A DNA stretch of 64,000 nt from a virus. Of this stretch, positions 33,556 through 59,239 are shown piece after piece. The DNA lies in the IMG/VR virus record IMGVR_UViG_3300045988_044066; one strand, 5' to 3'. The notes beneath the pieces were generated by a model. That model saw nothing but the letters and a program-made list of their open reading frames with translations. It was not told the origin of the DNA and made no database searches. Numbering within the stretch: the stretch's first letter is position 1; the number at the start of each line of letters is the position of its first letter. The position numbers and the translations under genes are program-made.

Positions 33556-33561
33556 ATACCC

Positions 33562-35972: not shown

Positions 35973-35976
35973 ATTG

Positions 35977-36195: not shown

Positions 36196-36206
36196 TTAGT
36201 TGTTAA

Positions 36207-36230: not shown

Positions 36231-36242
36231 GCCCTCCAAGGT

Positions 36243-37700: not shown

Positions 37701-37703
37701 TAC

Positions 37704-37976: not shown

Positions 37977-37988
37977 CTATTAACTGTG

Positions 37989-38062
37989 TGGGCCCGGCCG
38001 GACTTGAACCGACAACCTCCTGATTATGAGTCAGTTTCTCTAACCGATTGAGATACGGGCCC
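37989..38062 (-). tRNA. tRNA with CAT anticodon (second copy; Met/Ile2 type)
   Basis: Acceptor GGGCCCG/CGGGCCC. Loop CTCATAA. T-arm GTCGG-TTCAAGT-CCGGC. Confidence 0.65.
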
Positions 38063-38158
38063 CGAACGCCCATGTTTACTCACAATTAACAGTTCTCAAA
38101 GAGTAGTGTTGTTAGTGACTTCATGATAAATTCTATTTTAAACTGAAATAATTAGTAG

Positions 38159-38230
38159 TTGGGCTACCAGGATTCGAACCTGGGCTACAAGAGCCAAAAC
38201 CTTGTGTGACTACCACTACACCATAGCCCA
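38159..38230 (-). tRNA. tRNA-Gln(TTG)
   Basis: Acceptor TGGGCTA/TAGCCCA. Anticodon arm CAAGG-TTTTGGC-TCTTG. T-arm CCAGG-TTCGAAT-CCTGG. Confidence 0.65.
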
Positions 38231-46887: not shown

Positions 46888-47466
46888 TTATTGCAACTCT
46901 AATCCTTCTTTTAGTGCCCTAGTGTATGCCATTCTAGCAAAGAATAGTTCAGCTACAGCCATAACTACTGGCTCTGCTAACTCTTCGGCTTCTTCAGCTC
47001 TTTCTTCTTTGGGCTTAGATTCTACATATTCCAGTAATTCCAACACAGCTCTATTAGCTTCAACCAGACGACTATAAGCAGTGCGAACTTGTTTATAGTT
47101 CTTATATCGTTCTCGATATGGTCTTATTGCATTCCATGAATATGAAGCAGCCACTATTATTGATATGGCACATAGTACCATAAATCCGAGGGGTTCTCCT
47201 TTAGACCATGCTGAATAGATTTGACACAATACAACACCCAAACATAGATTCTGTCCTATAAAGAGGGACAGTAAGAACCAATAAGCTGAAAATGCCTTCT
47301 TTGCTTCATCAAGTAATGATGCTGACTCTTTTAGCTTCTCTTGTTCAGCTTTTAATGAGTCAATTGACACTTCCATAGCTTCTCCTTCGTCTGAATCTTT
47401 AAGGCGTTCATATTCCTCTTCACTAATCTTGGTTATTTTCAAATCTTCTAATTCTTCTCGATTCAT
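46888..47466 (-). CDS. membrane protein (two TM helices) flanked by acidic coiled-coil segments
   Basis: 192-aa ORF. Confidence 0.45.
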   Translation of the reverse strand: MNREELEDLKITKISEEEYERLKDSDEGEAMEVSIDSLKAEQEKLKESASLLDEAKKAFSAYWFLLSLFIGQNLCLGVVLCQIYSAWSKGEPLGFMVLCAISIIVAASYSWNAIRPYRERYKNYKQVRTAYSRLVEANRAVLELLEYVESKPKEERAEEAEELAEPVVMAVAELFFARMAYTRALKEGLELQ

Positions 47467-47494
47467 TACCTTTCAATTTAAGTTCAACAATCTG

Positions 47495-47569
47495 TGGACC
47501 TGATGAGACTCGAACTCACGACCCTCTGCGTGCAAGGCAGATGCTCTAGCCAATCTGAGCTACAGGCCC
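47495..47569 (-). tRNA. tRNA-Ala(TGC)
   Basis: Acceptor GGGCCTG/CAGGTCC with G3-U70. Anticodon arm TCTGC-CTTGCAC-GCAGA. T-arm GTGAG-TTCGAGT-CTCAT. Confidence 0.7.
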
Positions 47570-47756
47570 ATATTTAGCCACACTATCGTAGGGCTATCAG
47601 CTCCCAACGTCCGACTGATTACGGAAGGTTACCTACCGGTCTGATAACCTATAAAATGCACAATTACTTAGTCATGCCCCAACTGTTCTTGTCAGTCTCC
47701 GACTCCAACCCATAGCATGTTATAGAACTCTACATGCATACCCTCCTCATTGTGCA

Positions 47757-48068
47757 CTATTTTAAACCTATCATTTCAGCAATTTCTTCAAATGAATAAT
47801 TCAGAAATAGTCTATCCATATCTGCATCAGATTTAACCCATTTAGGTCTAGGATATATAAGAGTAGGAGAATGTCCTCTCTCATGTAATCCATACACTAC
47901 TTCCTTCTTACCTTTAATAAGACGAAGGTCAATATGCTCTGACATAGAAGAATAAAATCCTATATTAGAATCCTCTACATATGTAGAACCCTTCTTAGAC
48001 ATTACCTTGCGATAAGGTTTATACCCTTTACTAATTAAATACTCTACGAACCCAATCATGTTAACCAC
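47757..48068 (-). CDS. hypothetical protein
   Basis: 103-aa ORF. Confidence 0.4.
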   Translation of the reverse strand: MVNMIGFVEYLISKGYKPYRKVMSKKGSTYVEDSNIGFYSSMSEHIDLRLIKGKKEVVYGLHERGHSPTLIYPRPKWVKSDADMDRLFLNYSFEEIAEMIGLK

Positions 48069-48074
48069 TATTAG

Positions 48075-48147
<73 letters not shown>

Positions 48148-48217
48148 ATCATCAGAAGGCAAATTGAACTACATGACACAGTAAAAGTGCTGATGCCTTC
48201 TTATATTACCCATTCAG

Positions 48218-48568
48218 TTATTCTAGATTAAGTAATTCTCTTGTCTCTTTCTTAAACTGTCTCCTATTATAGCGTTCTCCTTTACATATAGGACAACTAC
48301 AAGGAGTACTGGTTGTTTTATAGGCAAACGTATATTTAGAATTATATAATTCTGTCCAATGTCTACCTCTTGCCGTTTTATCTGGATTATACCAGTAGGC
48401 AGCGTGGAGTTTAATCCTAGTAATATACTTCTGGTCTTTCTTTAGGTTCCTCCACCTTTTGTTTCTTTGGATTAGTGAATCCTTCAGTTTCTCCGTTCTT
48501 AGTTCTTCCATCGTCTCTACCATTAGTGTTAATAATGTCTTGAGACGGGTTGTAGCCGGTTCCAACAA
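48218..48568 (-). CDS. hypothetical protein (C-terminal CSCPIC zinc motif)
   Basis: 116-aa ORF. Confidence 0.4.
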   Translation of the reverse strand: MLEPATTRLKTLLTLMVETMEELRTEKLKDSLIQRNKRWRNLKKDQKYITRIKLHAAYWYNPDKTARGRHWTELYNSKYTFAYKTTSTPCSCPICKGERYNRRQFKKETRELLNLE

Positions 48569-48617
48569 ACTTCTTCATGTCCAATCCTGTTAAATTAATT
48601 CCTTTCATACGATAATT

Positions 48618-48965
48618 TTACAATCTATTAAATACTGCATGTTCCTTTAACCACTCTTGATAGAGCTTATCATCATAGTTCCCTGAATACTCCCAATGAA
48701 ATCTACTACATTCTATAGTCTTTAGTAAGAACTTCATCACAGACCTTGTATTAGCCTTCTTTGATATAGATGAAATGTAAAACTTCTCTTTATCAAAATC
48801 ATAGTATCCTCGTAATACCACTCGGCGAGAATTTTGCCTATTTAAGTAAATTCTTGCCAACAACTTGGAGTTATTGTCTACATATCGAGTAGGTATGAAT
48901 TTATAAGCCATCTGATTCAGCCAGCAATAAAGTAATACCAACACAATAGGCATTATTAACTGCAT
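48618..48965 (-). CDS. hypothetical protein
   Basis: 115-aa ORF. Confidence 0.4.
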   Translation of the reverse strand: MQLIMPIVLVLLYCWLNQMAYKFIPTRYVDNNSKLLARIYLNRQNSRRVVLRGYYDFDKEKFYISSISKKANTRSVMKFLLKTIECSRFHWEYSGNYDDKLYQEWLKEHAVFNRL

Positions 48966-49224
48966 TCAGCCTCTTCTTGAGTTCCTTCTTAGCCTTTCTG
49001 GGCAACTTTGGGTACTCTGCATATAAATCCTGTTCAGCGGCTCTACTTGCTTCGCTTAATTGCTCAAGTAAAGCATTAACATCTTCTTTAGTTTTGTAAT
49101 CCTTAAGAAGGACTCTAACTAATGTGGGACGTTTTACCATTTCTCGCATTCCAGATTCGTACACTCTACAAATTTGGTTTCTACTTAACGTAGACACTCT
49201 CCTTAATTTCACTTTAAACTTCAT
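48901..49224 (-). CDS. hypothetical protein
   Basis: 107-aa ORF. Confidence 0.4.
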   Translation of the reverse strand: MKFKVKLRRVSTLSRNQICRVYESGMREMVKRPTLVRVLLKDYKTKEDVNALLEQLSEASRAAEQDLYAEYPKLPRKAKKELKKRLNAVNNAYCVGITLLLAESDGL

Positions 49225-49243
49225 AGTACATTCAAATTAGTTG

Positions 49244-49329
49244 AGGAAGCAGAGGGATTCGAACCCCCGGACCCCGAAGGACCTCTGGTTTTCAAGACCA
49301 GTGCAATCGACCAACTCTGCCATACTTCC
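49244..49329 (-). tRNA. tRNA-Ser(TGA), class II
   Basis: Acceptor GGAAGTA/TGCTTCC. Anticodon arm CTGGT-CTTGAAA-ACCAG. Long variable arm. T-arm GGGGG-TTCGAAT-CCCTC. Confidence 0.6.
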
Positions 49330-49339
49330 AATTAATAAG

Positions 49340-49414
49340 CACGCCCTGCACGACTCGAACATGCAACACACCCAGTTTTGGAGACAGGGGCTCTACCGAT
49401 TGAGCTAAGGACGC
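49340..49414 (-). tRNA. tRNA-Trp(CCA) (two G-U pairs in the acceptor stem, one U-U in the anticodon stem)
   Basis: Acceptor GCGTCCT/AGGGCGT. Loop CTCCAAA. T-arm GCATG-TTCGAGT-CGTGC. Confidence 0.5.
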
Positions 49415-49528
49415 ATCAATTTTAGATTGTGGAATCTTTAAAGATATAATACAGTACTACTAGCACTATAGCTCCCACAATGTAAGCACCAAAACTATGC
49501 ATAATCTTATAATTTAATGTTAATAATG

Positions 49529-49603
49529 CGGGAAGGGCGAGACTCGAACTCGCTATCTTCGGCTTAACAGGCCGCAGCTGTATACCACTTAAGCTTCCTT
49601 CCC
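49529..49603 (-). tRNA. tRNA-Asn(GTT) (long D-loop)
   Basis: Acceptor GGGAAGG/CCTTCCC. Loop CTGTTAA. T-arm GCGAG-TTCGAGT-CTCGC. Confidence 0.55.
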
Positions 49604-50027
49604 AAATGTTTAATTGACCTATCCCGATTGCATCGGAGTTAATCCCTATGGTAAGGAACTACTCCTGTTGGATACCACGTGTAGCTATCAGCTGACACTT
49701 TGAAATACCAACGAACTGCTTTCTTAATTAACTTAAATAGTCTCATAATACATCAGTTTTAGTCAATAAATAAATAATCTAGCTTATCACTAAACAGCAA
49801 CCAAAGCAAAATACTAGCAACAACAATACTCCAGTGAATGGATTAAATTGATGTTGAGCTATACAAGCAACTGTTCCTATAACAGAACCAATTACTAACA
49901 ATACTCCAATAATCTTACTCATAAATGTATCTGATTTTAAATTAATAATCTAAATAAACCACTCTATCTTCACAGACTGAGTGGTTAAACTCGTTCTTTG
50001 ACATCATGTACAATCTTAGTACATATG

Positions 50028-50099
50028 TGATTCCGCAGGGACTTGAACCCTGTTCTATAGATTAAAAGTCTATAGCATATCCATACATGCTCCGGAATC
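50028..50099 (-). tRNA. tRNA-Lys(TTT)
   Basis: Acceptor GATTCCG/CGGAATC. D-stem GCAT/ATGC. Anticodon arm ATAGA-CTTTTAA-TCTAT. T-arm CAGGG-TTCAAGT-CCCTG. Confidence 0.7.
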
Positions 50100-50182
50100 A
50101 TCCACAGAAGGCGCGTTATCAAAAACATGTAAACTGTACAATGATTAGTGCTGTACACCTTCTTATGTTTCACTAAATCGAG

Positions 50183-50254
50183 AGTGGGCTGACGGAATCG
50201 AACCGTCCTAACTGGTTTTGCGGACCAGCCCCTAAACCTCTCGGGCAAGCCCAC
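50183..50254 (-). tRNA. tRNA-Cys(GCA)
   Basis: Acceptor GTGGGCT/AGCCCAC. Anticodon arm CTGGT-CCGCAAA-ACCAG. T-arm GACGG-TTCGATT-CCGTC. Confidence 0.65.
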
Positions 50255-50394
50255 ATATCAATACGACTTATGGGCTTAACTATGAAACAGGTTAATCAAA
50301 TCATAAATTAAAAGTTGTTGGGTTGATTGTTGAGTTGATTTGATGACTGTTTAGTGAAACTATATATTATTGTGTTAATTATGGTTCTTATTAA

Positions 50395-50424
50395 AACTAC
50401 TCTATTCTCACGAACTGAGTAGTT
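50395..50424. repeat. Conserved-loop hairpin, copy C: stem aactactc/gagtagtt, loop tattctcacgaact
   Basis: Same loop core TATTCTC(T/A)CGAAC as hairpins at 53443-53470 and 53718-53755, with an unrelated stem sequence. Confidence 0.5.
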
Positions 50425-50479
50425 GTCCATATTTGCTATTATGGGATTATCAGCATCCTCTCTTGGATGCCACGGGGAG

Positions 50480-50515
50480 TATGGGTAGCCAGACTCGAAC
50501 TGGCGACAACTAGGT
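50480..50515 (-). tRNA. tRNA-Pro(TGG) 3' half (A38, anticodon stem 3' strand, variable loop, T-arm, acceptor 3' strand)
   Basis: A-CCTAG-TTGTC-GCCAG-TTCGAGT-CTGGC-TACCCAT-A. Pairs perfectly with the 5' half at 51319-51355. Confidence 0.6.
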
Positions 50516-51318
50516 CTAGGAACTAATGCTTTAGAGATTTGTCCAATCGTTAGAGTTAATAGATTTAATATCTGACATCCTAGTGGGAAGATTGTAACTT
50601 TTACACCATCTTCTAACCGCGTTATCTGATACACCAAAATCTTTACCGATTTGAACGAATGATTTTGTTCTAATTAATTCTTTCAGCTCCTCTTTCGAGG
50701 GCCATTCAGTCTTTCTAGAAGACAATCTATAACACTCTACACACATAATACCGTCCTTAGATACTGGATTGCGGTGACATTTAACACAGATGTGTTCTTT
50801 GTGTGCAATTGTGCTCTCTGTAATACTAGAACTACATTCCTCGGAACAGAAAGAAGTTTTGACCTTATGTCCGAGCATATTCTCTAATAGATAATCTTCT
50901 GCTTTATTGTAAACATTACTGCCATTGGTAGGAGGTTTAAGTCGTAGCGTCTTACTAGTTGAACATTCAGACACCGGAATTAAATATACCTTACCATCGT
51001 AAGCTGTTGCAAAATAATCTATTTGAGACTCATCATATCTCCTACGGACTGTTTCTTTAGTATTAGTAGTCTGCGTAACTGTACTAAAATGAAACGCATC
51101 TAAATCTCTAATTCCATTCTTAATAGGATTACTTGAAGACTTGCATTGAACTCTAAGAAGTTCATCACCCACATCTACTATTATGTCATATCTGGAGTTG
51201 TCTCCATAGGGAATTGAGCAATCAAATCCCATCGACATGAATCCTATAAGACAGGTTAATTCCGTAATATTACCTTTAGATTTTGTATAATCCATATGTT
51301 ATACTCTAAAGTTTAGTT
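50516..51318 (-). mobile_element. ~803-nt insertion (putative group I intron or homing-endonuclease insertion) in the anticodon loop of tRNA-Pro(TGG), between G37 and A38 (ambiguous by 1 nt)
   Basis: Joining the 5' and 3' halves gives a canonical 73-nt cloverleaf. The insertion RNA ends in ...GUUCCUAG (terminal G) and carries ORF 50531-51295 on the same strand. Confidence 0.5.
50531..51295 (-). CDS. endonuclease-like ORF inside the tRNA-Pro insertion (N-terminal PD-(D/E)xK-like motif, CxxC..CxxC zinc ribbon, C-terminal helix-turn-helix)
   Basis: RYDIIVDVGDELLRVQCK (D...E.K motif), HICVKCH...CVECY, and C-terminus ELKELIRTKSFVQIGKDFGVSDNAVRRWCKSY (HTH). Confidence 0.5.
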   Translation of the reverse strand: MDYTKSKGNITELTCLIGFMSMGFDCSIPYGDNSRYDIIVDVGDELLRVQCKSSSNPIKNGIRDLDAFHFSTVTQTTNTKETVRRRYDESQIDYFATAYDGKVYLIPVSECSTSKTLRLKPPTNGSNVYNKAEDYLLENMLGHKVKTSFCSEECSSSITESTIAHKEHICVKCHRNPVSKDGIMCVECYRLSSRKTEWPSKEELKELIRTKSFVQIGKDFGVSDNAVRRWCKSYNLPTRMSDIKSINSNDWTNL

Positions 51319-51355
51319 CCCAAACCTAGCATTCTACCTACTGAATTACACCCAT
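51319..51355 (-). tRNA. tRNA-Pro(TGG) 5' half (acceptor 5' strand, D-arm, anticodon stem 5' strand and loop TTTGGG)
   Basis: ATGGGTG-TA-ATTC-AGTAGGTA-GAAT-G-CTAGG-TTTGGG. Confidence 0.6.
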
Positions 51356-51457
51356 AACTACAGAAGTCTCTTAGTTTAATTAAAATCATAAAATATGAAA
51401 CACTTTCTTTCATGCTGTAAGACTTCTTATTCAAAGCTATTGAAAATTGTTGTATTG

Positions 51458-51530
51458 TGGGTGTACTTGGACTTGAACCAAGGACTTACACGTTATCAGC
51501 GTGTTACTCTACCACCTGAGTTATACACCC
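51458..51530 (-). tRNA. tRNA-Ile(GAT)
   Basis: Acceptor GGGTGTA/TACACCC. Anticodon arm ACACG-CTGATAA-CGTGT. T-arm CTTGG-TTCAAGT-CCAAG. Confidence 0.7.
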
Positions 51531-51632
51531 ATCATCAGAAGACAATAGATTCATTTACTTATGCCAACATACAGGAAATTGCTGTTTGTCTTCTTAGCAT
51601 TCTGAAAATGCAAATGTACAAATGACTGTAGT

Positions 51633-51701
51633 TGCGGTCGGACGATTCGAACGTCGTCTCTGGGTTATGAGCCCAGTAAGCTACCATTGCTCCACCACCG
51701 C
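51633..51701 (-). tRNA. tRNA-Met(CAT), initiator-like (GGG/CCC run in the anticodon stem); short, with one mismatch in the acceptor stem
   Basis: Anticodon arm CTGGG-CTCATAA-CCCAG has G29-C41, G30-C40, G31-C39. T-loop TTCGAAT. Confidence 0.5.
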
Positions 51702-51704
51702 AAG

Positions 51705-51776
51705 TGCCCCATGTTGGACTCGAACCAACGCCATACAAGTTTAGAATTTGCTCTTCTACCACTGAAGTAATGGGGC
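51705..51776 (-). tRNA. amber-suppressor tRNA-Sup(CTA)
   Basis: 72-nt cloverleaf: GCCCCAT-TA-CTTC-AGTGGTA-GAAG-A-GCAAA-TTCTAAA-CTTGT-ATGGC-GTTGG-TTCGAGT-CCAAC-ATGGGGC-A. Anticodon 5'-CUA-3' reads UAG. Confidence 0.6.
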
Positions 51777-51813
51777 GACAGAGGGTTTTACGAGATTACC
51801 CACAACTCATCAA

Positions 51814-52131
51814 CTATTCGATAATTTGATTCCACTGTTCAAGTGTAAGTTCCTTGACTACTATGCCATTTAGTTCAAATGGAGTATATTGGTTTCCATT
51901 CTCTTCTACAAGGATTAACCATTCGTAGCCACGTTGCTTGCTATGAGTTCTAATAATCTCCTTAATGGTTTCGATGCCAAAAGGAGTTAGAATCTTCTGC
52001 CCTTCTCTGTAAAGATACCTCTTGTTGAGGTCTTTTAAATCCTCTAATGTGGTTAAATGAGGATTAGGGTTCTTAGTGATAACTACATGGTCATCTCCTA
52101 CACTAACATAATAATCTCGATTGTATATCAT
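51814..52131 (-). CDS. hypothetical protein
   Basis: 105-aa ORF. Confidence 0.4.
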   Translation of the reverse strand: MIYNRDYYVSVGDDHVVITKNPNPHLTTLEDLKDLNKRYLYREGQKILTPFGIETIKEIIRTHSKQRGYEWLILVEENGNQYTPFELNGIVVKELTLEQWNQIIE

Positions 52132-52430
52132 TCTCTTACTAATTTAAGTTTCTTGAACATGCGACCGTCATCTTGTAATGCGATTGCTGTTAATTGATTG
52201 CCAAGGTCTGGTTCATAGAATGAAGAATAGTCCTTATTAACTAAGTCCAGTCTTACTTTCCATTTGTCCAAGTCAGCATATAAGTAGATTAAGTAGTTAT
52301 TATTCCAATCCTGCTTAGGATGTTCTAATAACCACTGCGCTACTGCATGACCTCCTTGTACACAACCATAAACTGCATCAAGCTTCTGGTCTATCAGCAC
52401 ATACAATCTCTTCATCAGAATATGTATCAA
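52128..52430 (-). CDS. hypothetical protein
   Basis: 100-aa ORF. Confidence 0.4.
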   Translation of the reverse strand: MIHILMKRLYVLIDQKLDAVYGCVQGGHAVAQWLLEHPKQDWNNNYLIYLYADLDKWKVRLDLVNKDYSSFYEPDLGNQLTAIALQDDGRMFKKLKLVRE

Positions 52431-52716
52431 TCAGTGAATCAACTCTTTCTCGGAAATACTTCTCTCCACTATACATCTTAGAATAACCACACCAACCTTG
52501 AGTTTCAAGTGATTTCCATTCTTTGATAACTTTAGCTAGATACTCATTCATAGCTTCTCCGATTAGTTTATGCTTTAATATGTAATAAGCTACATACATT
52601 GCATGTAATCTTCCTCTGTTGTAATAAACTGATGAGCAGTCATTAATATTCTTAGCTGCTTTCTGTGCTTTTACTAAATTCGCGATTTCTTGTTTAAATT
52701 GTTTAATTGTTGCCAT
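52378..52716 (-). CDS. hypothetical protein
   Basis: 112-aa ORF. Confidence 0.4.
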   Translation of the reverse strand: MATIKQFKQEIANLVKAQKAAKNINDCSSVYYNRGRLHAMYVAYYILKHKLIGEAMNEYLAKVIKEWKSLETQGWCGYSKMYSGEKYFRERVDSLIDTYSDEEIVCADRPEA

Positions 52717-52805
52717 GATAGTTAATTGTTAATAAGTTAATAAATAAATTGCCTTAATTAATAATCAACTATCTTATGGTGGCTTGTAAGTAATCTACCG
52801 CATAA

Positions 52806-53102
52806 TCATTTCCCTTTAATTTGTTTACACATGTTAATAAACTCATCATCCGATTCACATATAATCGGATTCGTTTCCTTGAGATACATCTCCAGATAGG
52901 CTTCTTTAGACAAATCGTCCACGTCATCCGGATACACACCATGTACATCATATGACATATGAGAACCCCAGCAACTAAGCCAATCAGCATCCTCAAATGT
53001 AGTACATATACACACACTTAACCCAGCATCCTCTAGTTTCTTACGAAGTTCTGGAGTATTCTTCTTAATAAGACAGTGTTCACTCATGGATTTAATACAC
53101 AT
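52806..53102 (-). CDS. hypothetical protein
   Basis: 98-aa ORF. Confidence 0.4.
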   Translation of the reverse strand: MCIKSMSEHCLIKKNTPELRKKLEDAGLSVCICTTFEDADWLSCWGSHMSYDVHGVYPDDVDDLSKEAYLEMYLKETNPIICESDDEFINMCKQIKGK

Positions 53103-53422
53103 AAACCACCTTTCTCGGAATCTCTAAGCACATACTTAATACCTGGAATACCAGGACCTGATACCTTATAAATGGTTAGTTCGTTAATAAATTCATACTG
53201 CACTCTGTTGATTTTATAATCTCCATTAGTAGCAGCAGACTCATTAATTGATGCTTTACTTGTGGTTGCAAATAATGCCAAGAAGGTAAATACTCCACAT
53301 AATCCACCAATAACACCTGCCTTAAATGATGTCTCTTTCATAATCTCATCTATTATTAATAATGAGCGGGATAACAGAATTGAACTGTCATCTTCAGCTT
53401 GGAAGGCTGTTATAATAACCAT
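53084..53422 (-). CDS. hypothetical protein (C-terminal hydrophobic segment)
   Basis: 112-aa ORF. Confidence 0.4.
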   Translation of the reverse strand: MVIITAFQAEDDSSILLSRSLLIIDEIMKETSFKAGVIGGLCGVFTFLALFATTSKASINESAATNGDYKINRVQYEFINELTIYKVSGPGIPGIKYVLRDSEKGGLCVLNP

Positions 53423-53442
53423 TATACGAATCCCGCAGTTTA

Positions 53443-53470
53443 CTTCTACTATTCTCTCGAACCATAGAAG
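53443..53470. repeat. Conserved-loop hairpin, copy A: stem cttcta/tagaag, loop ctattctctcgaacca
   Basis: Loop core TATTCTCTCGAAC shared with copies B and C. The stem differs. Confidence 0.5.
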
Positions 53471-53523
53471 GGTTTGTCGAGTTTGACCTCAACAGATATT
53501 GTATTTAATTATCGCAGTGTGAG

Positions 53524-53607
53524 TGGGCCCGGGAGGACTCGAACCTCCAGTCCAATTAAGGAGTAGATTTACAGTCTACGCGGCTACCAATTACCGGTTA
53601 CGTGCCC
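53524..53607 (-). tRNA. tRNA-Tyr(GTA), class II
   Basis: Acceptor GGGCACG/CGGGCCC (one A-G mismatch). Anticodon arm GTAGA-CTGTAAA-TCTAC. Long variable arm. T-arm GGAGG-TTCGAGT-CCTCC. Confidence 0.6.
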
Positions 53608-53717
53608 GAATCACACAATCCATATTAACTGTGAATTGTGAGTGCAAAGGTAATGAATCTTTCCCACATGTAAAAGTTAATATGTATTAAATACGATAGA
53701 AGTTTGCTCGGTATTAA

Positions 53718-53755
53718 ACTAAGCTCACATATTCTCTCGAACCGATGAGCTTAGT
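53718..53755. repeat. Conserved-loop hairpin, copy B: 10-bp stem actaagctca/tgagcttagt, loop catattctctcgaaccga
   Basis: Loop core TATTCTCTCGAAC. The stem is unrelated to copies A and C. Confidence 0.5.
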
Positions 53756-53857
53756 AGTTATTCAACAATTGCAGATACTTTAACTCGTAATAATGACTAT
53801 GAGTCGAGATAGAAATGACACTGCATATGTTGAAAGAATCATATTAATAAAATGGTG

Positions 53858-53931
53858 TAGAGATAACCAGATTCGAACTGATGTTCTTCTAAAGATTGAC
53901 TTTAGCTGTTCTACCACTGAACTATATCTCT
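53858..53931 (-). tRNA. tRNA-like gene, anticodon CAA (Leu-type) on a class I scaffold; isotype undetermined
   Basis: Acceptor AGAGATA/TATCTCT. D-arm GTTC-AGTGGTA-GAAC. Anticodon arm CTAAA-GTCAATC-TTTAG. T-arm ATCAG-TTCGAAT-CTGGT. Confidence 0.45.
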
Positions 53932-54094
53932 ATCCAGTCCCTATGGAATCATCCAATAAATTCCCACCTAGTGTTACTAGATATGCACAAAGATTACTAT
54001 ACCAAATATGCGCTCTTCTCCATGCATAATGAAATCTATCTTCTATCCAATCAGAACATTAATTCAACTATTAAATAAACGGTGCGCGAAATAC

Positions 54095-55789
54095 TTAGAC
54101 CTTCACAGGCTTCTTCTGCACGCTTGCATTCTTCTTGACAACATCCTTCTCTAGAATCATCATATTAAGCAACTCTTGATTCATAGCATGCTTAAAGATG
54201 TCTCTAGTGGTTTTAGGTACCTGGAACCTCTTCTCTCCAGTAATAAATGAGGATGTTGAATTATTAAGTCCATTTACTAAGAAGCAATTTGACACTCCTG
54301 GAACCAAAGCCACATTAGGTCTTCCCTTATATGCTAAAGGAACTCTCCAAATGATAACTTTGAATGCTCTTACAAATTCCTTACTGAAATTTGCTTTAAG
54401 CAGTCTTTGCTTAAATTCCACGAATGCTTGGTTGTTCAACTTGGTAAAATATGTATGGTTAGTAATTACCACACAACCTCTAGGGAACTCTCCTTCATCC
54501 ACACCATAATCTTCTTTCATTTTACACAGCATTTCTGCTATATTAATAATAGAAGGATTCTGGCATAATGCTTCTTCTTTGTCAGATTTCCATTTCTCAA
54601 TGACATTCTGACCTTTGAACTTACGTAGAACCATGTTATCTTCTAACACGGCATAGGAGTTTTTGAATATTGTAGGAAGTAATTCAGAATGATATAAAGC
54701 ATATGCTTTACCCAAACTGTAAGCAGATGTTTCGCTATTCTCTATCTCACCATTAGCAGAATGACTTATATCTCTTACTACCAACAACGGAGCTACTCTA
54801 TTGCGTTTAGCATTATCAACAAATACATTGAAACTTGCATTAATAGAAGTTTCCATAAATTCTGGAATCTCTTCGGCAATTTTATCCAATCCGTATGGTT
54901 TGAACAGAGTATGTAGAAATCCGCTATTAGAGGGCTTCTTACGGTTCTTCAACCAGTTCTGATACTTCTCTTTAAGACCTTGATGTTTGAGGAATTTAGA
55001 GCCTACTAGCTGTGCCAGTGCCTTTCCAGTAACAGTGTCAAAATCGATTTCCAAGAATTTCTTTTGACTGATTAACTGCTGCCATTGGGCTGCTTTCCCG
55101 CTATTCTTCATCTTCCTATATTTACGATAGGTTGAATAGTCTCCTTCATCCTTAGGTTTACCATAAAGGCCTTCCGCCAAGAATTTGGCTACTGTATTAC
55201 GTGCTTTTGCCTCATCTGTCTTACATGCAACACTGGAACGAACACGAGGAAGATACTTCTTTACTAAATCACATGTCTGACCGTTGGCAAGACCTGCGAA
55301 TATGACTTTCTTGAAGAAGTCCCAATCCAATCTGTGCTTAAAGCCATGGAGTTGAACATCTAAAGCCATCATAGTAATGAAATCTTTCCAGCATCCAGCT
55401 GCTGCAAAATAAGCAATGTTGGCATGGAATGTGGGTTTGTGATAGATTGCCAACCACAACATTCTCATTATACCTTCATTCTTCAAACCTTCTCCTTGCT
55501 GTGTATCAAGTTGTATAACTCCTTCCGGGGTAATTATTCTACATTTACGAGTTATCATTCTCGTATATGCAGTAAACTTAGTACATAGTAATGGATTAGC
55601 TTTCCATAAAGGATACATATCTTTAGCCACTTGCACGTAGGTACGTGGCTGAAGACATTTCTTAAGATTAACAAACTGGTCTATGAATAACTGATTATTA
55701 TCCACAAACTTAGGTTTATTCTCATCCCGCCTTTGACGTGCGGCATTAGGGTAAGGCCTCCTTGGCCTTTGTGCTCCTTTCATTTCCAT
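54095..55789 (-). CDS. large protein with C-terminal vWA-like domain (MIDAS-like DISHS) and N-terminal alpha-helical region; possible Ro60/TROVE (Rsr)-like RNA-binding protein
   Basis: LLVVRDISHSANGE contains a DxSxS MIDAS-like motif. GEGLKNEGIMRMLWLAIY resembles the Ro60 ...EPMLFALAIA segment. 564 aa, next to a tRNA island. Confidence 0.4.
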   Translation of the reverse strand: MEMKGAQRPRRPYPNAARQRRDENKPKFVDNNQLFIDQFVNLKKCLQPRTYVQVAKDMYPLWKANPLLCTKFTAYTRMITRKCRIITPEGVIQLDTQQGEGLKNEGIMRMLWLAIYHKPTFHANIAYFAAAGCWKDFITMMALDVQLHGFKHRLDWDFFKKVIFAGLANGQTCDLVKKYLPRVRSSVACKTDEAKARNTVAKFLAEGLYGKPKDEGDYSTYRKYRKMKNSGKAAQWQQLISQKKFLEIDFDTVTGKALAQLVGSKFLKHQGLKEKYQNWLKNRKKPSNSGFLHTLFKPYGLDKIAEEIPEFMETSINASFNVFVDNAKRNRVAPLLVVRDISHSANGEIENSETSAYSLGKAYALYHSELLPTIFKNSYAVLEDNMVLRKFKGQNVIEKWKSDKEEALCQNPSIINIAEMLCKMKEDYGVDEGEFPRGCVVITNHTYFTKLNNQAFVEFKQRLLKANFSKEFVRAFKVIIWRVPLAYKGRPNVALVPGVSNCFLVNGLNNSTSSFITGEKRFQVPKTTRDIFKHAMNQELLNMMILEKDVVKKNASVQKKPVKV

Positions 55790-56169
55790 CTCTTTGTTTA
55801 AATTTATTGTTATGAGAGTCTTTCTTTATTCTAAACAATAAACAAGCGGCATTACGGCAATCGGACATACGTTAACCCGCTCGCCACTTACAGACCGTAA
55901 TGCACACTTGACCAGGCAGGAAAGAGGTTTGCTTGGTGACCTATCTGCATGCTGATTATATAATGCAGACCGTGTAGATTCTCTCTTACACAATATCTAT
56001 AGTAGATTTGCACTACTGTTTTCTGATGCTTAATCAGGTGAACTCCTACTGTTCGAATAGATACAGGTTTCAACTCTTTGATATAGCCTTTAAGTCATAG
56101 ACATACTCCGGAATATGTCTACTGGTTCTTCAGACCAAGTTTTGCTACCACTATTCGTCAATAGTGGAT

Positions 56170-56865
56170 TTACGGTATTAGATAGTCCACACGAAGGTCT
56201 ACCGTCTCTTCGTTTGCTTCTAACACCACAGTCGTCGAAAGAATATCAGGATTGTCAGCTGTAGTTATCATACTCACAATATCATGTGGGGATTCTAAGT
56301 ATAAATAACCTCTACCGTCCCAAGCTGGAACATATCCACCTCGTAGAATGTTTCGAGACGGAATAGACTTGTAATAATAGTGTGCTGGCCGGTAGTGAGC
56401 GAATGATACGTTAATAGCTGATTGGTGTGTGCCTATGGTAAAACCACCCAGGACTGTTGCTAGTCTCATCACCTTACTAACATATTTTGAATCGCCTACT
56501 ACATCTAGTCTTATGTTCAAGCCTGGATAGTAGAATTTAGCAACTCTCCTGCTTATATCCTTCAACGTTTGAAGAGATTGAAATTCAGCAACATCAACAT
56601 AGTCTTTCTCCGATTCAGAACTACCGAAGACACAATTGATTGGTATTGGCTGATTAGCTTCAATACATTCTTCCAAAATAGTGATTGCTTCGGACGGAAT
56701 AGCTTCATTACCAAGTCTGATTCTCTTAGTCCCATATAAGATATGAGCTATAATCTGACTAAGTGGTAATGATAGTTTCTCCTTAGCAAAGTTGCTTTCC
56801 AAATCATATAGATATTGGCAAATGTGTGCACTGAATGGCGTGTTCCCTTGTACTGTAAACTTCAT
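56170..56865 (-). CDS. hypothetical protein
   Basis: 231-aa ORF. Confidence 0.5.
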   Translation of the reverse strand: MKFTVQGNTPFSAHICQYLYDLESNFAKEKLSLPLSQIIAHILYGTKRIRLGNEAIPSEAITILEECIEANQPIPINCVFGSSESEKDYVDVAEFQSLQTLKDISRRVAKFYYPGLNIRLDVVGDSKYVSKVMRLATVLGGFTIGTHQSAINVSFAHYRPAHYYYKSIPSRNILRGGYVPAWDGRGYLYLESPHDIVSMITTADNPDILSTTVVLEANEETVDLRVDYLIP

Positions 56866-57359
56866 ACTATCTGTTCAACTGTTATTAATTTAGTGATTCT
56901 ATAACCTCTCGATTTCAGGAATTTGATTGCTTCCATTTCAGCCTGTGTAATAGGAATCAGATGTTTGTCTTCTTCCGCTTCTGTAACAGCTTCCATTTCA
57001 GCTTGTGGCTTAGGTTTAGGAGGTGCTACGTAAGTGCCAGCTTTAATAGCCATTCTCTTAGCATATGCATCTCTCTGTATCTTAGCCATTTCTTTCCTGC
57101 TGATAGTTATCAATTCAATGACTCTAGTCTTATACAAAGGGCCATGTTCTTTCCACATAAATCCTTTAGTATAGATAGCACCGTCAGGTTCAATCACTCC
57201 CTGCTTACGCAAAACAGCCATGAAGTTCTCTGGCCTTGGGAAGCCATTCTTCTTTAAATCCCTGACTACATCTGTAATCTTAAAAGGCCCAGGATTCATT
57301 GCCTTTACCGTGTTAAAAATCCGAACGATGTCATCATCGGATATTGACCTCTTTCCCAT
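56862..57359 (-). CDS. hypothetical protein
   Basis: 165-aa ORF. Confidence 0.45.
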   Translation of the reverse strand: MGKRSISDDDIVRIFNTVKAMNPGPFKITDVVRDLKKNGFPRPENFMAVLRKQGVIEPDGAIYTKGFMWKEHGPLYKTRVIELITISRKEMAKIQRDAYAKRMAIKAGTYVAPPKPKPQAEMEAVTEAEEDKHLIPITQAEMEAIKFLKSRGYRITKLITVEQIV

Positions 57360-57385
57360 AATTTCAATAACTTTTAGTGAAACAA

Positions 57386-57667
57386 TTACTCTTTATATAT
57401 TCTAATTCGAGATTTACGCAGATGTACACGCATTCGTTTAATCTCGGACAGAATCCAATCACGTCTGCATTGATGTAACCATGCAATTACATCTTCGTCA
57501 AATAATAATTCTTGACCACAGTAGTATGTGCCACTGTAGTAAGTATCAAGCTTTGGTCTTAATATGTCATGAGGACTATCAGTAACTATGTATTGATAAT
57601 CCTCACCTCTTATTAATTTCAGCTTCTTTGACTCCTTGCGAAGTTTCTTTAATAACCTTGCTTTCAT
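57386..57667 (-). CDS. hypothetical protein
   Basis: 93-aa ORF. Confidence 0.4.
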   Translation of the reverse strand: MKARLLKKLRKESKKLKLIRGEDYQYIVTDSPHDILRPKLDTYYSGTYYCGQELLFDEDVIAWLHQCRRDWILSEIKRMRVHLRKSRIRIYKE

Positions 57668-58017
57668 TTTAATAGTTCCAATTTAGCTACGTCCTTATCA
57701 TACCATATCCCAATCCAGAAGTTGTCTACAAAGTTCCTATGATTCATGATGGTATAATTAAGCCTTAAGACATCACTAGATATAAGATAGTAATTCTTCC
57801 TATCAGTAGCCTCCAATGTTTCTTTGAGCACTGCGTGCTTGCCAATAATTTGAATATTCCTTGTAATAGCGAATGGTAATGAAATCGCTGCCCCAACTGT
57901 TGCTATTGAGAATACAATCTCAACTGCCACTGCAACTTCTCTTAGGTCTTTAGACCCTACTCGCGAAAGACATACACAAATAAGTAAAACAATCACTGCA
58001 ATAATAAATAATCCCAT
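57664..58017 (-). CDS. hypothetical membrane protein (N-terminal TM)
   Basis: MGLFIIAVIVLLICVCLS... Confidence 0.4.
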   Translation of the reverse strand: MGLFIIAVIVLLICVCLSRVGSKDLREVAVAVEIVFSIATVGAAISLPFAITRNIQIIGKHAVLKETLEATDRKNYYLISSDVLRLNYTIMNHRNFVDNFWIGIWYDKDVAKLELLK

Positions 58018-58034
58018 AAAATTGATATTTAAAC

Positions 58035-58587
58035 GTTAATAATAGTGGACCTAGGCGGAGTCGAACCGCCGTCCAAACAACCCTCATTAATAAGATTACG
58101 TGTGTCTCTATTTTATTACATCAGCTGTTGAGTTCAGCATGTAGGTAGTTTTACTAGTCTTATCTTGGAACCAGGTAATTAGGCTGCAATAGCCAAACCA
58201 GTACACCAAAAGCTAATTTACAAACTACCAAACTTAAAGGTTCAGAAGCTGACGCTTCCAAACCTGGGCTGACCGAAGTCGCTCTTCCACCACTCCATTT
58301 ACGTTGGAGAACGTTTCTATTTGTAACCCATAGATAGGTAGTGGAGATTTCAGCTTTACTAACCTTTGGCTTTCAAGTTAAGTGGGCTGCTCTATACGCT
58401 TCTTCCCACACCTCTTCTGTTTCTAGGTCTCTCCAATTAACCCGACTTAGAGCTAAATTAATAGATAAGCCAGCAGCTTAGGCTGCCATTCTTACTTCAG
58501 TGTTTCCACTTAAATTGCTGTATCATTATTAAAGAGTTGGTACGAACTCTACACGTCTTACTAACTTGTAATCGCCTGTCAAAACCA
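58035..58587 (-). ncRNA. ssrA: tmRNA (ssrA-like); unusually long at ~553 nt; predicted tag ...GNTEVRMAA*
   Basis: 5' end GGGCCUAGAUUUGGUUUUGACAGGCG resembles the consensus GGGGCUGAUUCUGGAUUCGACGGG. 3' end ...UUUGGAC-GGCGG-UUCGACU-CCGCC-UAGGUCC-A. Acceptor GGGCCUA/UAGGUCC. In-frame AUG-GCA-GCC-UAA ends ~120 nt from the 5' end. Confidence 0.55.
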
Positions 58588-58734
58588 AATCTAGGCCCAT
58601 AGAACGGCATGATTATCCTCTCATGCCAGGAGGTCTCTCAAACCTGAACAAAAAAGCTATCAGTATCTTCCTGTGCTACATTGAGTAGCGTACCCATTAC
58701 AGACTTAATAGCCTAGGAGTTATTTTTATTCCAT

Positions 58735-59088
58735 TTAAAATGGTAAGTTCCCTTCATGTTTCATCCAACTATAAACTACAATTTCATAATCTGGGAAATC
58801 GTTGGCAAGTTTAATACAACTGTCAAACGATAACTCTGTTATGCATATAAGAGGGTAATCATTGTCAAGCCATTCTCTAATTACATCCTTATCAGGAATA
58901 TGCTCATCCAATGACCATTTAAGCTCACGTTCAAGTCTTTCACGTATCGTATTTAATTTAATATGGTCATGTGTTCCATATATAACATTTAATATGTAAT
59001 ACAATAAATGGCTATTGAACTTATCAACATCGCTAATAAGAATATGCCTCTTGGCATTCCTTAAAGAATTAACTGCATTCTGATTCAT
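58735..59088 (-). CDS. hypothetical protein
   Basis: 117-aa ORF. Confidence 0.4.
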   Translation of the reverse strand: MNQNAVNSLRNAKRHILISDVDKFNSHLLYYILNVIYGTHDHIKLNTIRERLERELKWSLDEHIPDKDVIREWLDNDYPLICITELSFDSCIKLANDFPDYEIVVYSWMKHEGNLPF

Positions 59089-59170
59089 ACACTTATTAAT
59101 TAAAAGCCCAAGTGTGTTTCACAACATGACTGGGGCAAGCCTAAACTATACAAAACTTTAAAATGATTGG

Positions 59171-59239
59171 GAGAGGATGGGAGATTCGAACTCCCTCCGC
59201 CAGTTCGCAACTAGCCTTCTACCATTGAACTAATCCTCT
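59171..59239 (-). tRNA. tRNA-Arg(GCG)-like (short, 69 nt; 3-nt variable loop)
   Basis: Acceptor AGAGGAT/ATCCTCT. Anticodon arm GCTAG-TTGCGAA-CTGGC. T-arm GGGAG-TTCGAAT-CTCCC. Confidence 0.45.

What the first reader, a model, noticed from the sequence alone, without database searches (positions are those of the whole stretch)
51705..51776. Amber-suppressor tRNA (anticodon CUA) in the tRNA array
A clean 72-nt cloverleaf with anticodon loop TTCTAAA has anticodon 5'-CUA-3', which reads UAG. One A-C mismatch closes the anticodon stem.

Phage-encoded Sup(CTA) tRNAs are associated with stop-codon reassignment (UAG read as an amino acid) in late genes of some gut phages. ORFs in this window look intact in the standard code, so recoding, if present, would affect genes outside the window, for example structural genes.
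Basis: partly seen in the sequence, partly recalled or inferred. Interest (0 to 1): 0.75.

Follow-up and report, generated by a model that had tools for sequence, protein, structure and literature searches.

The report
Amber-suppressor tRNA in a standard-code phage
The tRNA that reads the UAG stop codon is real and evolutionarily maintained, but this large gut Bacteroides phage shows no UAG recoding in its own genes, a combination already published for this phage group whose purpose is still unknown.

Summary
A 72-nt tRNA gene with anticodon CUA lies at 51705-51776 on the minus strand (ARAGORN; Rfam tRNA 62.7 bits). It sits in an array of 27 credible tRNA genes (28 on the minus strand if the irregular 53857-53931 gene is counted).

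The window is the early region of a roughly 185-kb Zeta crAss-like gut phage. I rebuilt essentially the whole genome from contigs that carry the identical tRNA, plus GenBank MT835470.1 (97-99% identical). Terminase, portal, major head protein, tail fibres and giant ORFs up to 3,261 aa are all intact in the standard code. No ORF of 300 codons or more has an internal TAG.

The same test clearly detects TAG or TGA recoding in more distant relatives.

The tRNA is nevertheless under selection. Orthologues occupy the same slot in relatives down to 45% neighbour-protein identity, and 13 of 21 stem pairs show compensatory changes.

- Positions 31 and 39 never pair.
- It is not glutamine-like.
- Its closest paralogue is the phage tRNA-Arg(UCU).

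A 2025 paper (PMC12386605) already reports Sup-CTA without suppression in this clade. Function is unresolved; host-directed read-through is my best guess.

The parts
51705..51776 (-). tRNA gene with anticodon CUA (amber-suppressor type). The anticodon is at window 51744-51742. Positions A31 (51747) and C39 (51739) are unpaired. The discriminator is A73 and no CCA is encoded.
   Evidence: ARAGORN, Rfam 62.7 bits, sequence. The sequence is identical in 19 IMG/VR contigs and in 23 of 24 metagenome contigs that cover the slot. Covariation across 6 orthologues is.
51631..51702 (-). tRNA(CAU) one to two bases downstream of the suppressor, probably on the same precursor. It looks like an initiator tRNA: three G-C pairs next to the anticodon loop and a U1-A72 end pair. 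This neighbour is replaced by other sequence in some relatives.
   Evidence: ARAGORN, Rfam 57.9 bits, sequence. Variable 3' neighbours are seen in L003, L007, L008, L012 and others and in the array orders.
51777..51813 (-). Conserved spacer upstream of the tRNA, with the motif GTTGTGGGTAA-C--GTAAAACCCTC. Its role is unknown; it may be a processing or expression signal.
   Evidence: Conserved in the window, L456, L461 and L457.
51814..52131 (-). 105-aa ORF directly upstream of the tRNA. It ends in TAG in the window and in three diverged relatives. The sequence after the TAG is not conserved.
   Evidence: No Pfam family.
24051..59239 (-). Context: the early-region tRNA array. It holds 27 credible tRNA genes (28 on the minus strand counting the irregular tRNA-like gene at 53857-53931), interleaved with small ORFs and homing-endonuclease-type genes. 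A tmRNA (58043-58598) and a RAGATH-34 RNA (56060-56167) also lie within it.

Best explanation
This is a functional, selectively maintained tRNA with anticodon CUA. It is encoded in the early tRNA array of a roughly 185-kb Zeta crAss-like phage, probably of Bacteroides, whose own genome is written entirely in the standard code. It is therefore not the decoder of a recoded late-gene module.

The most likely role is inferred, not shown. Once transcribed with the other phage tRNAs and charged by a host synthetase, it would act in trans as a stop-codon read-through factor on mRNAs that end in UAG. Those are chiefly host mRNAs, so it would perturb host (including defence) protein production, while the phage's heavily expressed late genes in this lineage are immune because none ends in UAG.

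The inserted amino acid is unknown. The tRNA is not glutamine-like, and its body is most similar to the phage's own tRNA-Arg(UCU). With U35 and A73, established E. coli identity rules (from my own knowledge) would favour Lys or Gln charging.

Confidence by step:
- Real tRNA with CUA anticodon: about 0.95.
- No recoding in this genome: about 0.9.
- The host-directed mechanism: about 0.35-0.4, which is the figure given as the confidence value.
For: The tRNA is real and conserved.
- establish the gene and its covariation.
- Orthologues sit in the same slot (after tRNA-Tyr and tRNA-Gly-UCC) in relatives whose neighbouring 564-aa protein is 84, 83, 68 and 45% identical.
- Compensatory changes occur in all four stems.
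- The tertiary pair G19:C56 changes to A19:U56 in L457 and L426.
- The anticodon, A37, A38, C39 and A73 are invariant in the six orthologues (C39 and its mismatch with position 31).

The genome is not recoded.
- Contigs _042445, _036115 and _034415 carry both the identical tRNA and intact giant late genes, TerL and portal.
- MT835470.1 fills the remaining 31 kb with intact major head protein and tail-fibre genes.
- No long ORF has an internal TAG.

The method works. The same TerL-portal block in distant relatives rises from 0.12-0.37 to 0.61-0.96 ORF coverage when TAG is read as sense, or from about 0.5-0.6 to 0.87-1.04 for TGA. In this lineage it is already 0.86-0.95 in the standard code.

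Stop-codon use in this lineage: TAG ends 0 of 49 late genes against 18 of 157 early genes (Fisher p = 0.008).

The same state (Sup-CTA present, no suppression, Bacteroides hosts, polA, 23-29 tRNAs, 164-188 kb) is reported for 'clade 8' Zeta crAss-like phages. That paper argues for an anti-host role (PMC12386605). Yutin et al. 2021 raise the same idea (PMC7886860).
Against: - There is no direct evidence of expression, charging or read-through.
- About 11% of the phage's own early genes end in TAG with no nearby back-up stop: extensions run 1-44 codons, with a median of about 8 as for other stops. An efficient suppressor would therefore also extend phage proteins.
- Absence of late TAG stops is not general. 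L358, from the suppressor-carrying 68% clade, has 2 TAG stops among 11 late-strand ORFs.
- TGA is also depleted in late genes (p = 0.02), so a general TAA preference explains part of the pattern.
- The anticodon stem is weak: 3 Watson-Crick pairs, one G-U and one mismatch. The unmodified RNA does not fold into the cloverleaf as its minimum-energy structure. This may mean low decoding efficiency.
- Some relatives at 42-44% neighbour identity lack the tRNA at this slot (L460, L465).
Confidence: 0.38

Rival explanations
1. One reading: the tRNA decodes TAG as an amino acid in recoded late or structural genes of this genome, outside the window (a code-15-like switch).
For: Relatives in the same phage family are plainly TAG-recoded in the TerL-portal block and carry CUA tRNAs. 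The literature links phage Sup-CTA tRNAs to late-gene recoding.
Against: - All late genes of this lineage are intact in the standard code over essentially the whole genome.
- The recoded relatives use different suppressors: a glutamine-like one plus a second 'type B' form. These sit next to the late module, not in the early array.
Confidence: 0.03
2. Evolutionary by-product: either a first step towards recoding (suppressor acquired, TAG sense codons not yet accumulated) or a leftover from a recoded ancestor, with little present function.
For: - Yutin 2021 and Borges 2021 propose suppressor acquisition before code change.
- Code switches occur at short distances in the Zeta group.
- The tRNA is missing at the slot in some relatives.
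Against: - The tRNA has persisted in lineages diverged to 45% neighbour-protein identity.
- Many compensatory substitutions preserve the cloverleaf and the CUA anticodon. This indicates long-term purifying selection rather than drift.
- No lineage examined that carries this tRNA family has late-gene TAGs (L352, L342 and L358 are standard code). The late region of the 45% relative (L459) was not examined.
- PMC12386605 makes the same argument.
Confidence: 0.15
3. Insurance or compatibility device. The suppressor buffers amber nonsense mutations in a genome with 3-10 kb ORFs. Alternatively, it lets the phage express genes acquired by recombination from TAG-recoded relatives that share its hosts, or interferes with such relatives during co-infection.
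For: - The genome has giant ORFs of 1,014-3,254 aa.
- TAG-recoded relatives with homologous late genes exist in the same samples and collections.
- Borges 2021 discusses rare stop codons as dangerous nonsense targets and sensing of co-infecting phages.
Against: - Selection for mutation buffering is expected to be weak.
- No gene with a TAG inherited from a recoded relative was seen.
- The idea is entirely inferential.
Confidence: 0.15
4. Unconventional decoder. Positions 31 and 39 never pair, so the anticodon loop may be a 9-nt loop (N-U-U-C-U-A-A-A-C) that contains the whole loop of tRNA-Arg(UCU), CUUCUAA. The tRNA might then read a four-base codon such as UAGA (a +1 frameshift), still read AGA, or read UAG only in a special context.
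For: - The 31-39 mismatch (A.C or C.C) is conserved in all 6 orthologues, while the other four stem pairs covary.
- The closest paralogue is tRNA-Arg(UCU), at 0.63-0.70 identity. That lies in the top 0.2-2.7% of inter-isotype pairs.
- Engineered tRNAs with 8-9-nt loops read four- and five-base codons (my own knowledge, not checked here).
Against: - No target exists in the phage. Only 1 of 19 TAG stops is followed by A, and no gene continues in the +1 frame after a TAG without its own start codon.
- A mismatch at 31-39 does not by itself change loop geometry.
- ARAGORN and Rfam both fit a normal 7-nt loop.
Confidence: 0.05
5. Non-decoding role, for example a decoy or substitute substrate for host anticodon nucleases or other tRNA-targeting defences. 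The CUA anticodon would then be incidental.
For: The phage carries a near-complete tRNA set and a tRNA repair and maturation kit: ligase, CCA-adding enzyme, PNKP, and a HAD_SAK_2+YqeY protein. This suggests conflict with tRNA-targeting defences.
Against: - The CUA anticodon, A37 and A38 are invariant across diverged orthologues while the stems change.
- A decoy has no evident need for a stop-codon anticodon.
Confidence: 0.05

Closest known systems
Sup-CTA tRNAs of standard-code 'clade 8' Zeta crAss-like phages (Int J Mol Sci 2025, PMC12386605; Zeta group defined by Yutin et al. 2021, PMC7886860)
   Same: - Human-gut phage of about 164-188 kb with polA, 23-29 tRNAs in an early block and about 36-37% GC.
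- Bacteroides hosts predicted.
- A CTA-anticodon tRNA is present, with no TAG suppression anywhere in the genome.

All of these were found here.
   Different: - I could not compare sequences directly with the named genomes (ct3H02, 3468_61007 and others), because they are not in the searchable collections.
- In the passages I searched, the paper does not describe this tRNA's structure, covariation, the conserved 31-39 mismatch, or its resemblance to tRNA-Arg(UCU).
Glutamine-type amber suppressor tRNAs of TAG-recoded crAss-like and Lak phages (code 15; Ivanova 2014, Yutin 2021, Borges 2021/2022, Peters 2022)
   Same: Phage-encoded, anticodon CUA, anticodon loop ending CUAAA, same broad phage order and habitat.
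   Different: - Those genomes have many in-frame TAGs in late genes; this one has none.
- The suppressors of the recoded Zeta relatives fetched here include a tRNA-Gln-like form (U1-A72, GGTGTAATGGT D-arm; 0.71 identity to the window's tRNA-Gln) and a second 'type B' form. They lie beside the late module.
- This tRNA has G1-C72 and a different body, and lies in the early array.
Laboratory amber suppressors of E. coli (supE, supF, su7), from my own knowledge
   Same: CUA anticodon flanked by U33 and A37-A38, the context known to favour suppression. Charging by a host synthetase would be required.
   Different: - Those arise by single anticodon mutations of cellular tRNAs and keep a paired 31-39.
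- This one is a long-lived phage gene family with a conserved unpaired 31-39 and no single-step parent in the array.
Phage tRNA-Arg(UCU) of the same array (window 48074-48147)
   Same: The closest paralogue of the suppressor family: acceptor GC(C/T)CCA, a similar D-arm, and the T-loop TTTGAAT with the A19:U56 variant shared with L457 and L426. Its loop sequence CUUCUAA is contained in the suppressor's 9-nt stretch.
   Different: - It has anticodon UCU in a normal 7-nt loop closed by C31-G39.
- It has G1.U72.
- It has an extra A in the D-loop, probably A20, the ArgRS identity base. This is my own knowledge and was not tested.

Membership tests
Canonical elongator-type tRNA (Rfam RF00005) | Score above the family's gathering threshold, plus a call by an independent tRNA predictor. 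| tested here: met
   62.7 bits against 29; ARAGORN call.
Canonical elongator-type tRNA (Rfam RF00005) | Cloverleaf helices supported by covariation, and elbow elements (G18G19, T-loop) present. | tested here: met
   13 of 21 pairs have changes on both sides, 95% of cells are paired, and 0 of 500 shuffles reach this. G19:C56 covaries to A19:U56 in two orthologues. The exception is pair 31-39, which never forms.
Suppressor tRNA serving a TAG-recoded phage genome (code-15 type) | Anticodon CUA. | tested here: met
Suppressor tRNA serving a TAG-recoded phage genome (code-15 type) | In-frame TAG codons in genes of the same genome, typically late or lysis genes, that become full length when TAG is read as sense. 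| tested here: not met
   No internal TAG in any ORF of at least 300 codons across about 185 kb. Late genes are intact. Recoded relatives serve as a positive control.
Suppressor tRNA serving a TAG-recoded phage genome (code-15 type) | Glutamine-like tRNA body (U1-A72, tRNA-Gln-like D-arm), as in TAG-to-Gln phages. | tested here: not met
   The tRNA has G1-C72. Its best paralogue is Arg(UCU), not Gln. The Gln-like suppressors of recoded relatives are a different sequence family.
Suppressor tRNA serving a TAG-recoded phage genome (code-15 type) | Accessory code-change genes (release factor 2, dedicated aminoacyl-tRNA synthetase). These are optional in the literature. | tested here: inconclusive
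   None found among about 40 large proteins scanned against Pfam, nor by tblastn with a recalled RF2 fragment. Not all proteins were scanned.
tRNA-Pyl (ARAGORN's label) | Pyl-type architecture: 6-bp anticodon stem, 3-nt variable loop, very small D-loop without G18G19, one base between acceptor and D stems (features from my own knowledge). | tested here: not met
   The sequence shows a 4-5-bp anticodon stem, a 5-nt variable loop, a D-loop AGTGGTA with GG, two bases (TA) at positions 8-9, and a normal TTCGAGT T-loop.
tRNA-Pyl (ARAGORN's label) | Accompanying pylS and pylBCD genes. | tested here: inconclusive
   No such domains in the proteins scanned. The scan was not exhaustive.
[quoted passage not shown] | Genome of about 164-188 kb, polA, 23-29 tRNAs, about 36-37% GC, terminase related to Crassvirales. 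| tested here: met
   - Contigs of 183-187 kb.
- DNA_pol_A.
- 27-28 tRNAs.
- GC 0.36-0.40 in the window.
- Best annotated TerL hits are crAss-like phages at about 30% identity.
- Table 1 of the paper.
[quoted passage not shown] | Sup-CTA present together with absence of stop-codon suppression. | tested here: met
[quoted passage not shown] | Sequence or phylogenetic placement with the named clade-8 genomes; Bacteroides host. | not testable with these tools
   The named genomes are not in the searchable collections. The host was not tested (no CRISPR spacer search). The only hint is that the window is joined to a Bacteroidetes DUF4621 gene at 63260.

The most novel reading that the evidence does not exclude
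The conserved failure of positions 31 and 39 to pair, together with descent from tRNA-Arg(UCU), marks a natural expanded-loop tRNA with the 9-nt loop N-UUCUAAA-C. It would decode something other than a plain in-frame UAG, for example the quadruplet UAGA or context-dependent UAG on host messages. That would make it a phage weapon that causes frameshifting or read-through in host translation rather than a code-change device.
Probability: 0.04. Interest if true: 0.8.

Novelty: already known. Interest (0 to 1): 0.3.

Why it matters
The result is useful as a caution. A clean CUA tRNA in a phage tRNA array does not imply an alternative genetic code. Gene callers should keep table 11 for this abundant gut phage lineage; its proteins appear in thousands of public assemblies.

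The open question, already raised in print, is why standard-code phages keep an amber suppressor for long evolutionary times. Three details found here may help design the experiment that settles it:
- strong covariation with an always-unpaired 31-39;
- a body like tRNA-Arg(UCU) rather than tRNA-Gln;
- placement in the early array, whereas recoded relatives place different suppressors beside the late genes.

If the tRNA proves to be a host-directed read-through factor, it would be a new kind of phage takeover tool. That remains untested.

Tried and rejected
- **Near-identity DNA search of the phage collection** with window 40-60 kb: only a 116-nt hit in the tmRNA region. A protein search with the 670-aa phrog_1735 protein hit only distant phages. 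Neither gave a reference genome. The TerL protein search later found MT835470.1.
- **Apparent TAG junction between two same-frame ORFs** upstream of the glucosaminidase gene (L029-L031, 8149-8583 and 8584-9138). Rejected: the second ORF has its own ATG four codons after the TAG and its own N-terminal motif, and the frames differ in L032.
- **Other TAG 'junctions'** listed are short segments in non-coding frames. TAGs inside long TAG-sense ORFs all lie before the real start or at the real stop.
- **HDV-like or theta ribozymes next to the suppressor** (reported for recoding phages, PMC10879173). None was found at E up to 1 in 49-60 kb with Rfam 15. Whether Rfam 15 holds a theta-ribozyme model was not checked.
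- **Back-up stops after TAG-terminated genes.** They are no closer than after TAA or TGA stops.
- **Programmed read-through of the ORF upstream of the tRNA.** The TAG is conserved, but the extension is not.
- **Quadruplet UAGA or +1 frameshift targets.** None found.
- **Late-gene TAG-stop avoidance as a signature of suppressor activity.** It is significant in this lineage (p = 0.008) but not general, and is confounded by a TAA preference.
- **The metagenome scan** returned only relatives at least 99% identical. Diverged orthologues had to be reached through protein homologues.
- **Linking the 45% relative (L459) to its late region** to learn its code failed; no TerL hit came from that contig.
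- **Minimum-energy folding** does not reproduce the D and anticodon arms. This is common for tRNAs and is outweighed by the covariation evidence.

Full report
**Observation.**
ARAGORN finds 29 tRNA-like genes in the window. Twenty-eight lie on the minus strand between 24051 and 59239. The one plus-strand call (43715-43791) overlaps tRNA-Ser and is probably spurious. One minus-strand call (53857-53931) is irregular, which leaves 27 credible tRNA genes.

One call, at 51704-51776, has anticodon CTA. Rfam's tRNA model matches 51705-51776 on the minus strand at 62.7 bits, E = 3e-11.

The minus strand reads GCCCCAT TA CTTC AGTGGTA GAAG A GCAAA TTCTAAA CTTGT ATGGC GTTGG TTCGAGT CCAAC ATGGGGC A.
- This is a 72-nt class I cloverleaf with anticodon loop UUCUAAA and anticodon CUA.
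- A31 and C39 are mismatched, and G27 and U43 form a wobble pair.
- The discriminator is A73, and no CCA is encoded.

The gene is on the minus strand.

**What the window is.**
All substantial ORFs are on the minus strand and are intact in the standard code. They encode replication and nucleotide-metabolism functions:
- NrdD, a DnaB-like helicase, an SF2 helicase, an SbcCD-like exonuclease and an AAA ATPase;
- a PurZ-like adenylosuccinate synthetase.

The window's proteins occur in thousands of public assemblies, on contigs that cluster at 183-187 kb.

The terminase of the same lineage is most similar, at about 30% identity, to crAss-like phages. The polymerase is family A.

Yutin et al. first defined the Zeta group: 145-192 kb, many introns and tRNAs, and mixed genetic codes.

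**Testing the recoding idea.**
The pattern search found the tRNA in 19 IMG/VR contigs that are 86-99% (mostly 96-99%) identical to the window. I walked the genome through these contigs with eight collection scans.

Contig _042445 carries the identical tRNA (L002). It also carries a 60.7-kb stretch that merges without a single conflict. That stretch contains, on the opposite strand, ORFs of 1,525, 804, 3,254, 2,967, 610 and at least 1,014 aa.

Contigs _036115 and _034415, also carriers, contain:
- TerL (762 aa, phrog_6681) and portal (736 aa, phrog_6547), followed by further late ORFs of 258-589 aa;
- a 1,250-aa glucosaminidase-domain protein on the early-gene strand.

A TerL protein search then found GenBank MT835470.1 (117,447 bp, human faeces, 100% identical TerL). 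It is 97-99% identical to these contigs and closes the remaining 31-kb gap.
- Standard-code ORFs cover 97.8% of that record.
- The gap region holds the major head protein (473 aa, phrog_11589), tail-fibre proteins and large virion proteins, all intact.
- Reading TAG or TGA as sense does not increase coverage.
- Across the window, the composites and this record, no ORF of at least 300 codons contains a TAG, other than upstream of its real start or at its stop.

The late module has 49 genes ending in TAA (43) or TGA (6). None ends in TAG.

**Positive control.**
The same coverage measure was applied to the TerL-portal block of more distant relatives fetched in the same scans.
- L387, L388, L390, L402, L406, L407, L409, L412, L413, L061 and L062 rise from 0.12-0.37 to 0.61-0.96 when TAG is read as sense.
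- L397, L401, L403 and L408 rise from 0.50-0.63 to 0.87-1.04 when TGA is read as sense.
- This lineage and its nearer relatives are already at 0.86-0.95 in the standard code.

The test can therefore see recoding, and this genome does not have it.

**The tRNA is nevertheless maintained.**
A scan anchored on the neighbouring 564-aa protein, not on the tRNA itself, returned 24 metagenome contigs that cover the slot. All carry a CUA tRNA between tRNA-Gly(UCC) and the next gene. In 23 of them it is identical to the window's copy.

Homologues of that protein led to more diverged genomes.
- The CUA tRNA occupies the same slot at 84%, 83%, 68% and 45% neighbour identity (L461, L456, L457, L459).
- A further variant occurs in L426.
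- Two relatives at 42-44% identity (L460, L465) lack it there.

On the alignment of the six orthologues plus one 'type B' suppressor from a recoded relative:
- 95% of cells pair;
- 13 of 21 pairs have changes on both sides;
- no shuffle of 500, and no slid register, comes close to these values.

The elbow pair G19:C56 becomes A19:U56 in two orthologues. The anticodon, A37, A38, C39 and A73 do not vary among the six orthologues. This pattern is that of a working tRNA kept by selection, not of a decaying or newly mutated gene.

**Unusual features.**
Pair 31-39 never forms in the six orthologues (A.C or C.C), while the four pairs below it covary. The anticodon stem is thus effectively 4 bp and the loop potentially 9 nt.

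The tRNA is not glutamine-like. The TAG-recoded relatives carry clearly tRNA-Gln-like CUA tRNAs (U1-A72; 0.71 identity to the window's tRNA-Gln) plus a second 'type B' form. Both lie a few kb upstream of TerL rather than in the early array.

The closest paralogue of the window's suppressor family is the phage's tRNA-Arg(UCU).
- Identity is 0.63-0.70 with the anticodon masked, which lies in the top 0.2-2.7% of 4,050 inter-isotype pairs.
- They share the A19:U56 variant.
- The Arg loop CUUCUAA is contained in the suppressor's CUUCUAAAC (L457, L459).

A one-base slide of the loop could therefore have produced CUA from UCU. This is an inference.

Which amino acid is attached cannot be decided here. 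From established E. coli identity rules (my own knowledge), a CUA anticodon with A73 tends to attract LysRS or GlnRS.

**What it does.**
The phage's own use of TAG gives little guidance.
- TAG ends 10 of 90 genes in the window and 8 of 67 early-strand genes in MT835470.1.
- Downstream back-up stops are no nearer than after other stops.
- The ORF just upstream of the tRNA ends in TAG in four lineages, but what follows is not conserved.
- No TAG-terminated gene continues in the +1 frame, and only one TAG stop is followed by A.

Late genes lack TAG stops in this lineage (0 of 49 against 18 of 157, p = 0.008). However, TGA is also depleted, and a suppressor-carrying relative (L358) has two TAG-terminated late-strand ORFs.

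No release factor or synthetase gene was found among the proteins scanned. The Rfam search found no HDV-like ribozyme beside the tRNA.

Since the phage has no sense TAGs, the remaining targets for a maintained suppressor are UAG stop codons. Those are mainly host stop codons. This is the anti-host or anti-defence idea already voiced by Yutin et al. and by the 2025 Zeta paper. I adopt it as the best explanation at modest confidence.

I list four rivals: an evolutionary by-product, mutation buffering or compatibility with recoded relatives, an unconventional expanded-loop decoder, and a non-decoding role.

**Novelty.**
PMC12386605 reports a CTA suppressor tRNA without suppression for this very clade. 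Yutin et al. 2021 note the mismatch between suppressor presence and recoding in the Zeta group more generally. The finding is therefore already known.

I did not find the following points in those papers. They are minor additions, and they rest on six sequences:
- the covariation analysis;
- the conserved 31-39 mismatch;
- the Arg(UCU)-like body, against the Gln-like suppressors of recoded relatives;
- the different genomic placement.

**Limits.**
- The whole-genome view is a composite of near-identical contigs, not the window's own molecule.
- The last 740 bases of the window are not phage-like at all (see the items noticed in passing).
- Gene calls are simple ORF calls.
- The code of the 45% relative was not established.
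- Isotype models could not be run.

Noticed in passing
window 63260-64000: The window stops matching every related phage contig at 63259. The rest encodes the C-terminal half of a DUF4621 protein (E = 1.7e-111, profile positions 169-329 of 329) and the start of a DUF5723 protein, both on the plus strand. I know both families as Bacteroidetes-specific, which was not checked here. This is either an assembly chimera or a real junction or insertion.
   Followed up: partly
window 58043-58598 (minus strand): Rfam matches a tmRNA at 83.7 bits over 556 nt against a 374-position model, so it probably carries an insertion. ARAGORN did not report it. A phage tmRNA beside an amber suppressor is a notable pairing, because read-through can strand ribosomes at mRNA ends.
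   Followed up: no
window 56060-56167 (minus strand): Strong full-length match to RAGATH-34 RNA (120.9 bits, gathering score 60.7), between the 564-aa DUF7788-like gene and a 231-aa ORF.
   Followed up: no
window 53857-53931 (minus strand); orthologues in L456, L457, L459, L460, L461, L465: The first tRNA of this part of the array is called Leu(CAA), but it has no long variable arm and has T at position 37. Its orthologues carry other anticodon loops: UGA in L456 at 79% body identity, and irregular 6-9-nt loops in L457, L459 and L460. It is an irregular, fast-changing tRNA-like gene.
   Followed up: partly
window 38252-39319 (minus strand): Adenylosuccinate-synthetase-like gene whose best PHROG (phrog_1211) is the PurZ type used for 2-aminoadenine DNA (E = 5e-45). 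It ends in TAG. A homologue is also present in the distant relative L460. Whether these phages make Z-DNA bases was not examined.
   Followed up: no
window 904-3931 (minus strand): nrdD is split into 2225-3931 (568 aa) and 904-1383 (159 aa) by an HNH endonuclease gene (1364-2095). In L021 and L022 the gene is a continuous 688 aa. This is a mobile intron-type insertion, as reported for Zeta phages.
   Followed up: partly
window 50531-51295 (minus strand): A PD-(D/E)XK endonuclease gene lies inside the tRNA array, about 400 bases downstream of the suppressor pair. The segment 50480-51318 is missing from many otherwise 96-99% identical contigs, so it is a mobile insertion.
   Followed up: partly
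L412 44-114 (complement); L402 961-1032 (complement): In TAG-recoded relatives the second ('type B') suppressor has anticodon CUA in L402, L406 and L407, but UUA (ochre) in L412 at 83% body identity. This suggests suppressors switch stop-codon specificity within this family.
   Followed up: partly
L020-L023 and L109/L188 (the 30 kb beyond window position 1): A tRNA and RNA repair and maturation set lies downstream of the window:
- an ATP-dependent ligase (DNA and RNA ligase domains);
- a CCA-adding-type nucleotidyltransferase;
- PNKP;
- a HAD_SAK_2+YqeY protein.

NAPRTase, NAD synthase, Thy1 and PolA are also there.
   Followed up: no
window 43715-43791 (plus strand): ARAGORN's only plus-strand call, tRNA-Arg(TCG), overlaps the minus-strand tRNA-Ser(GCT) at 43730-43818 and has no Rfam match. 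It is probably spurious.
   Followed up: no
L288, L312 and composite A (contig IMGVR_UViG_3300045988_042445, 95-126 kb): The end of the late module is a run of six giant ORFs (at least 1,014, then 610, 2,967, 3,254, 804 and 1,525 aa) with no Pfam or PHROG match for the three tested. In contig _036115 the 3,254-aa ORF is broken into 983, 233 and 2,264 aa by an insertion.
   Followed up: no
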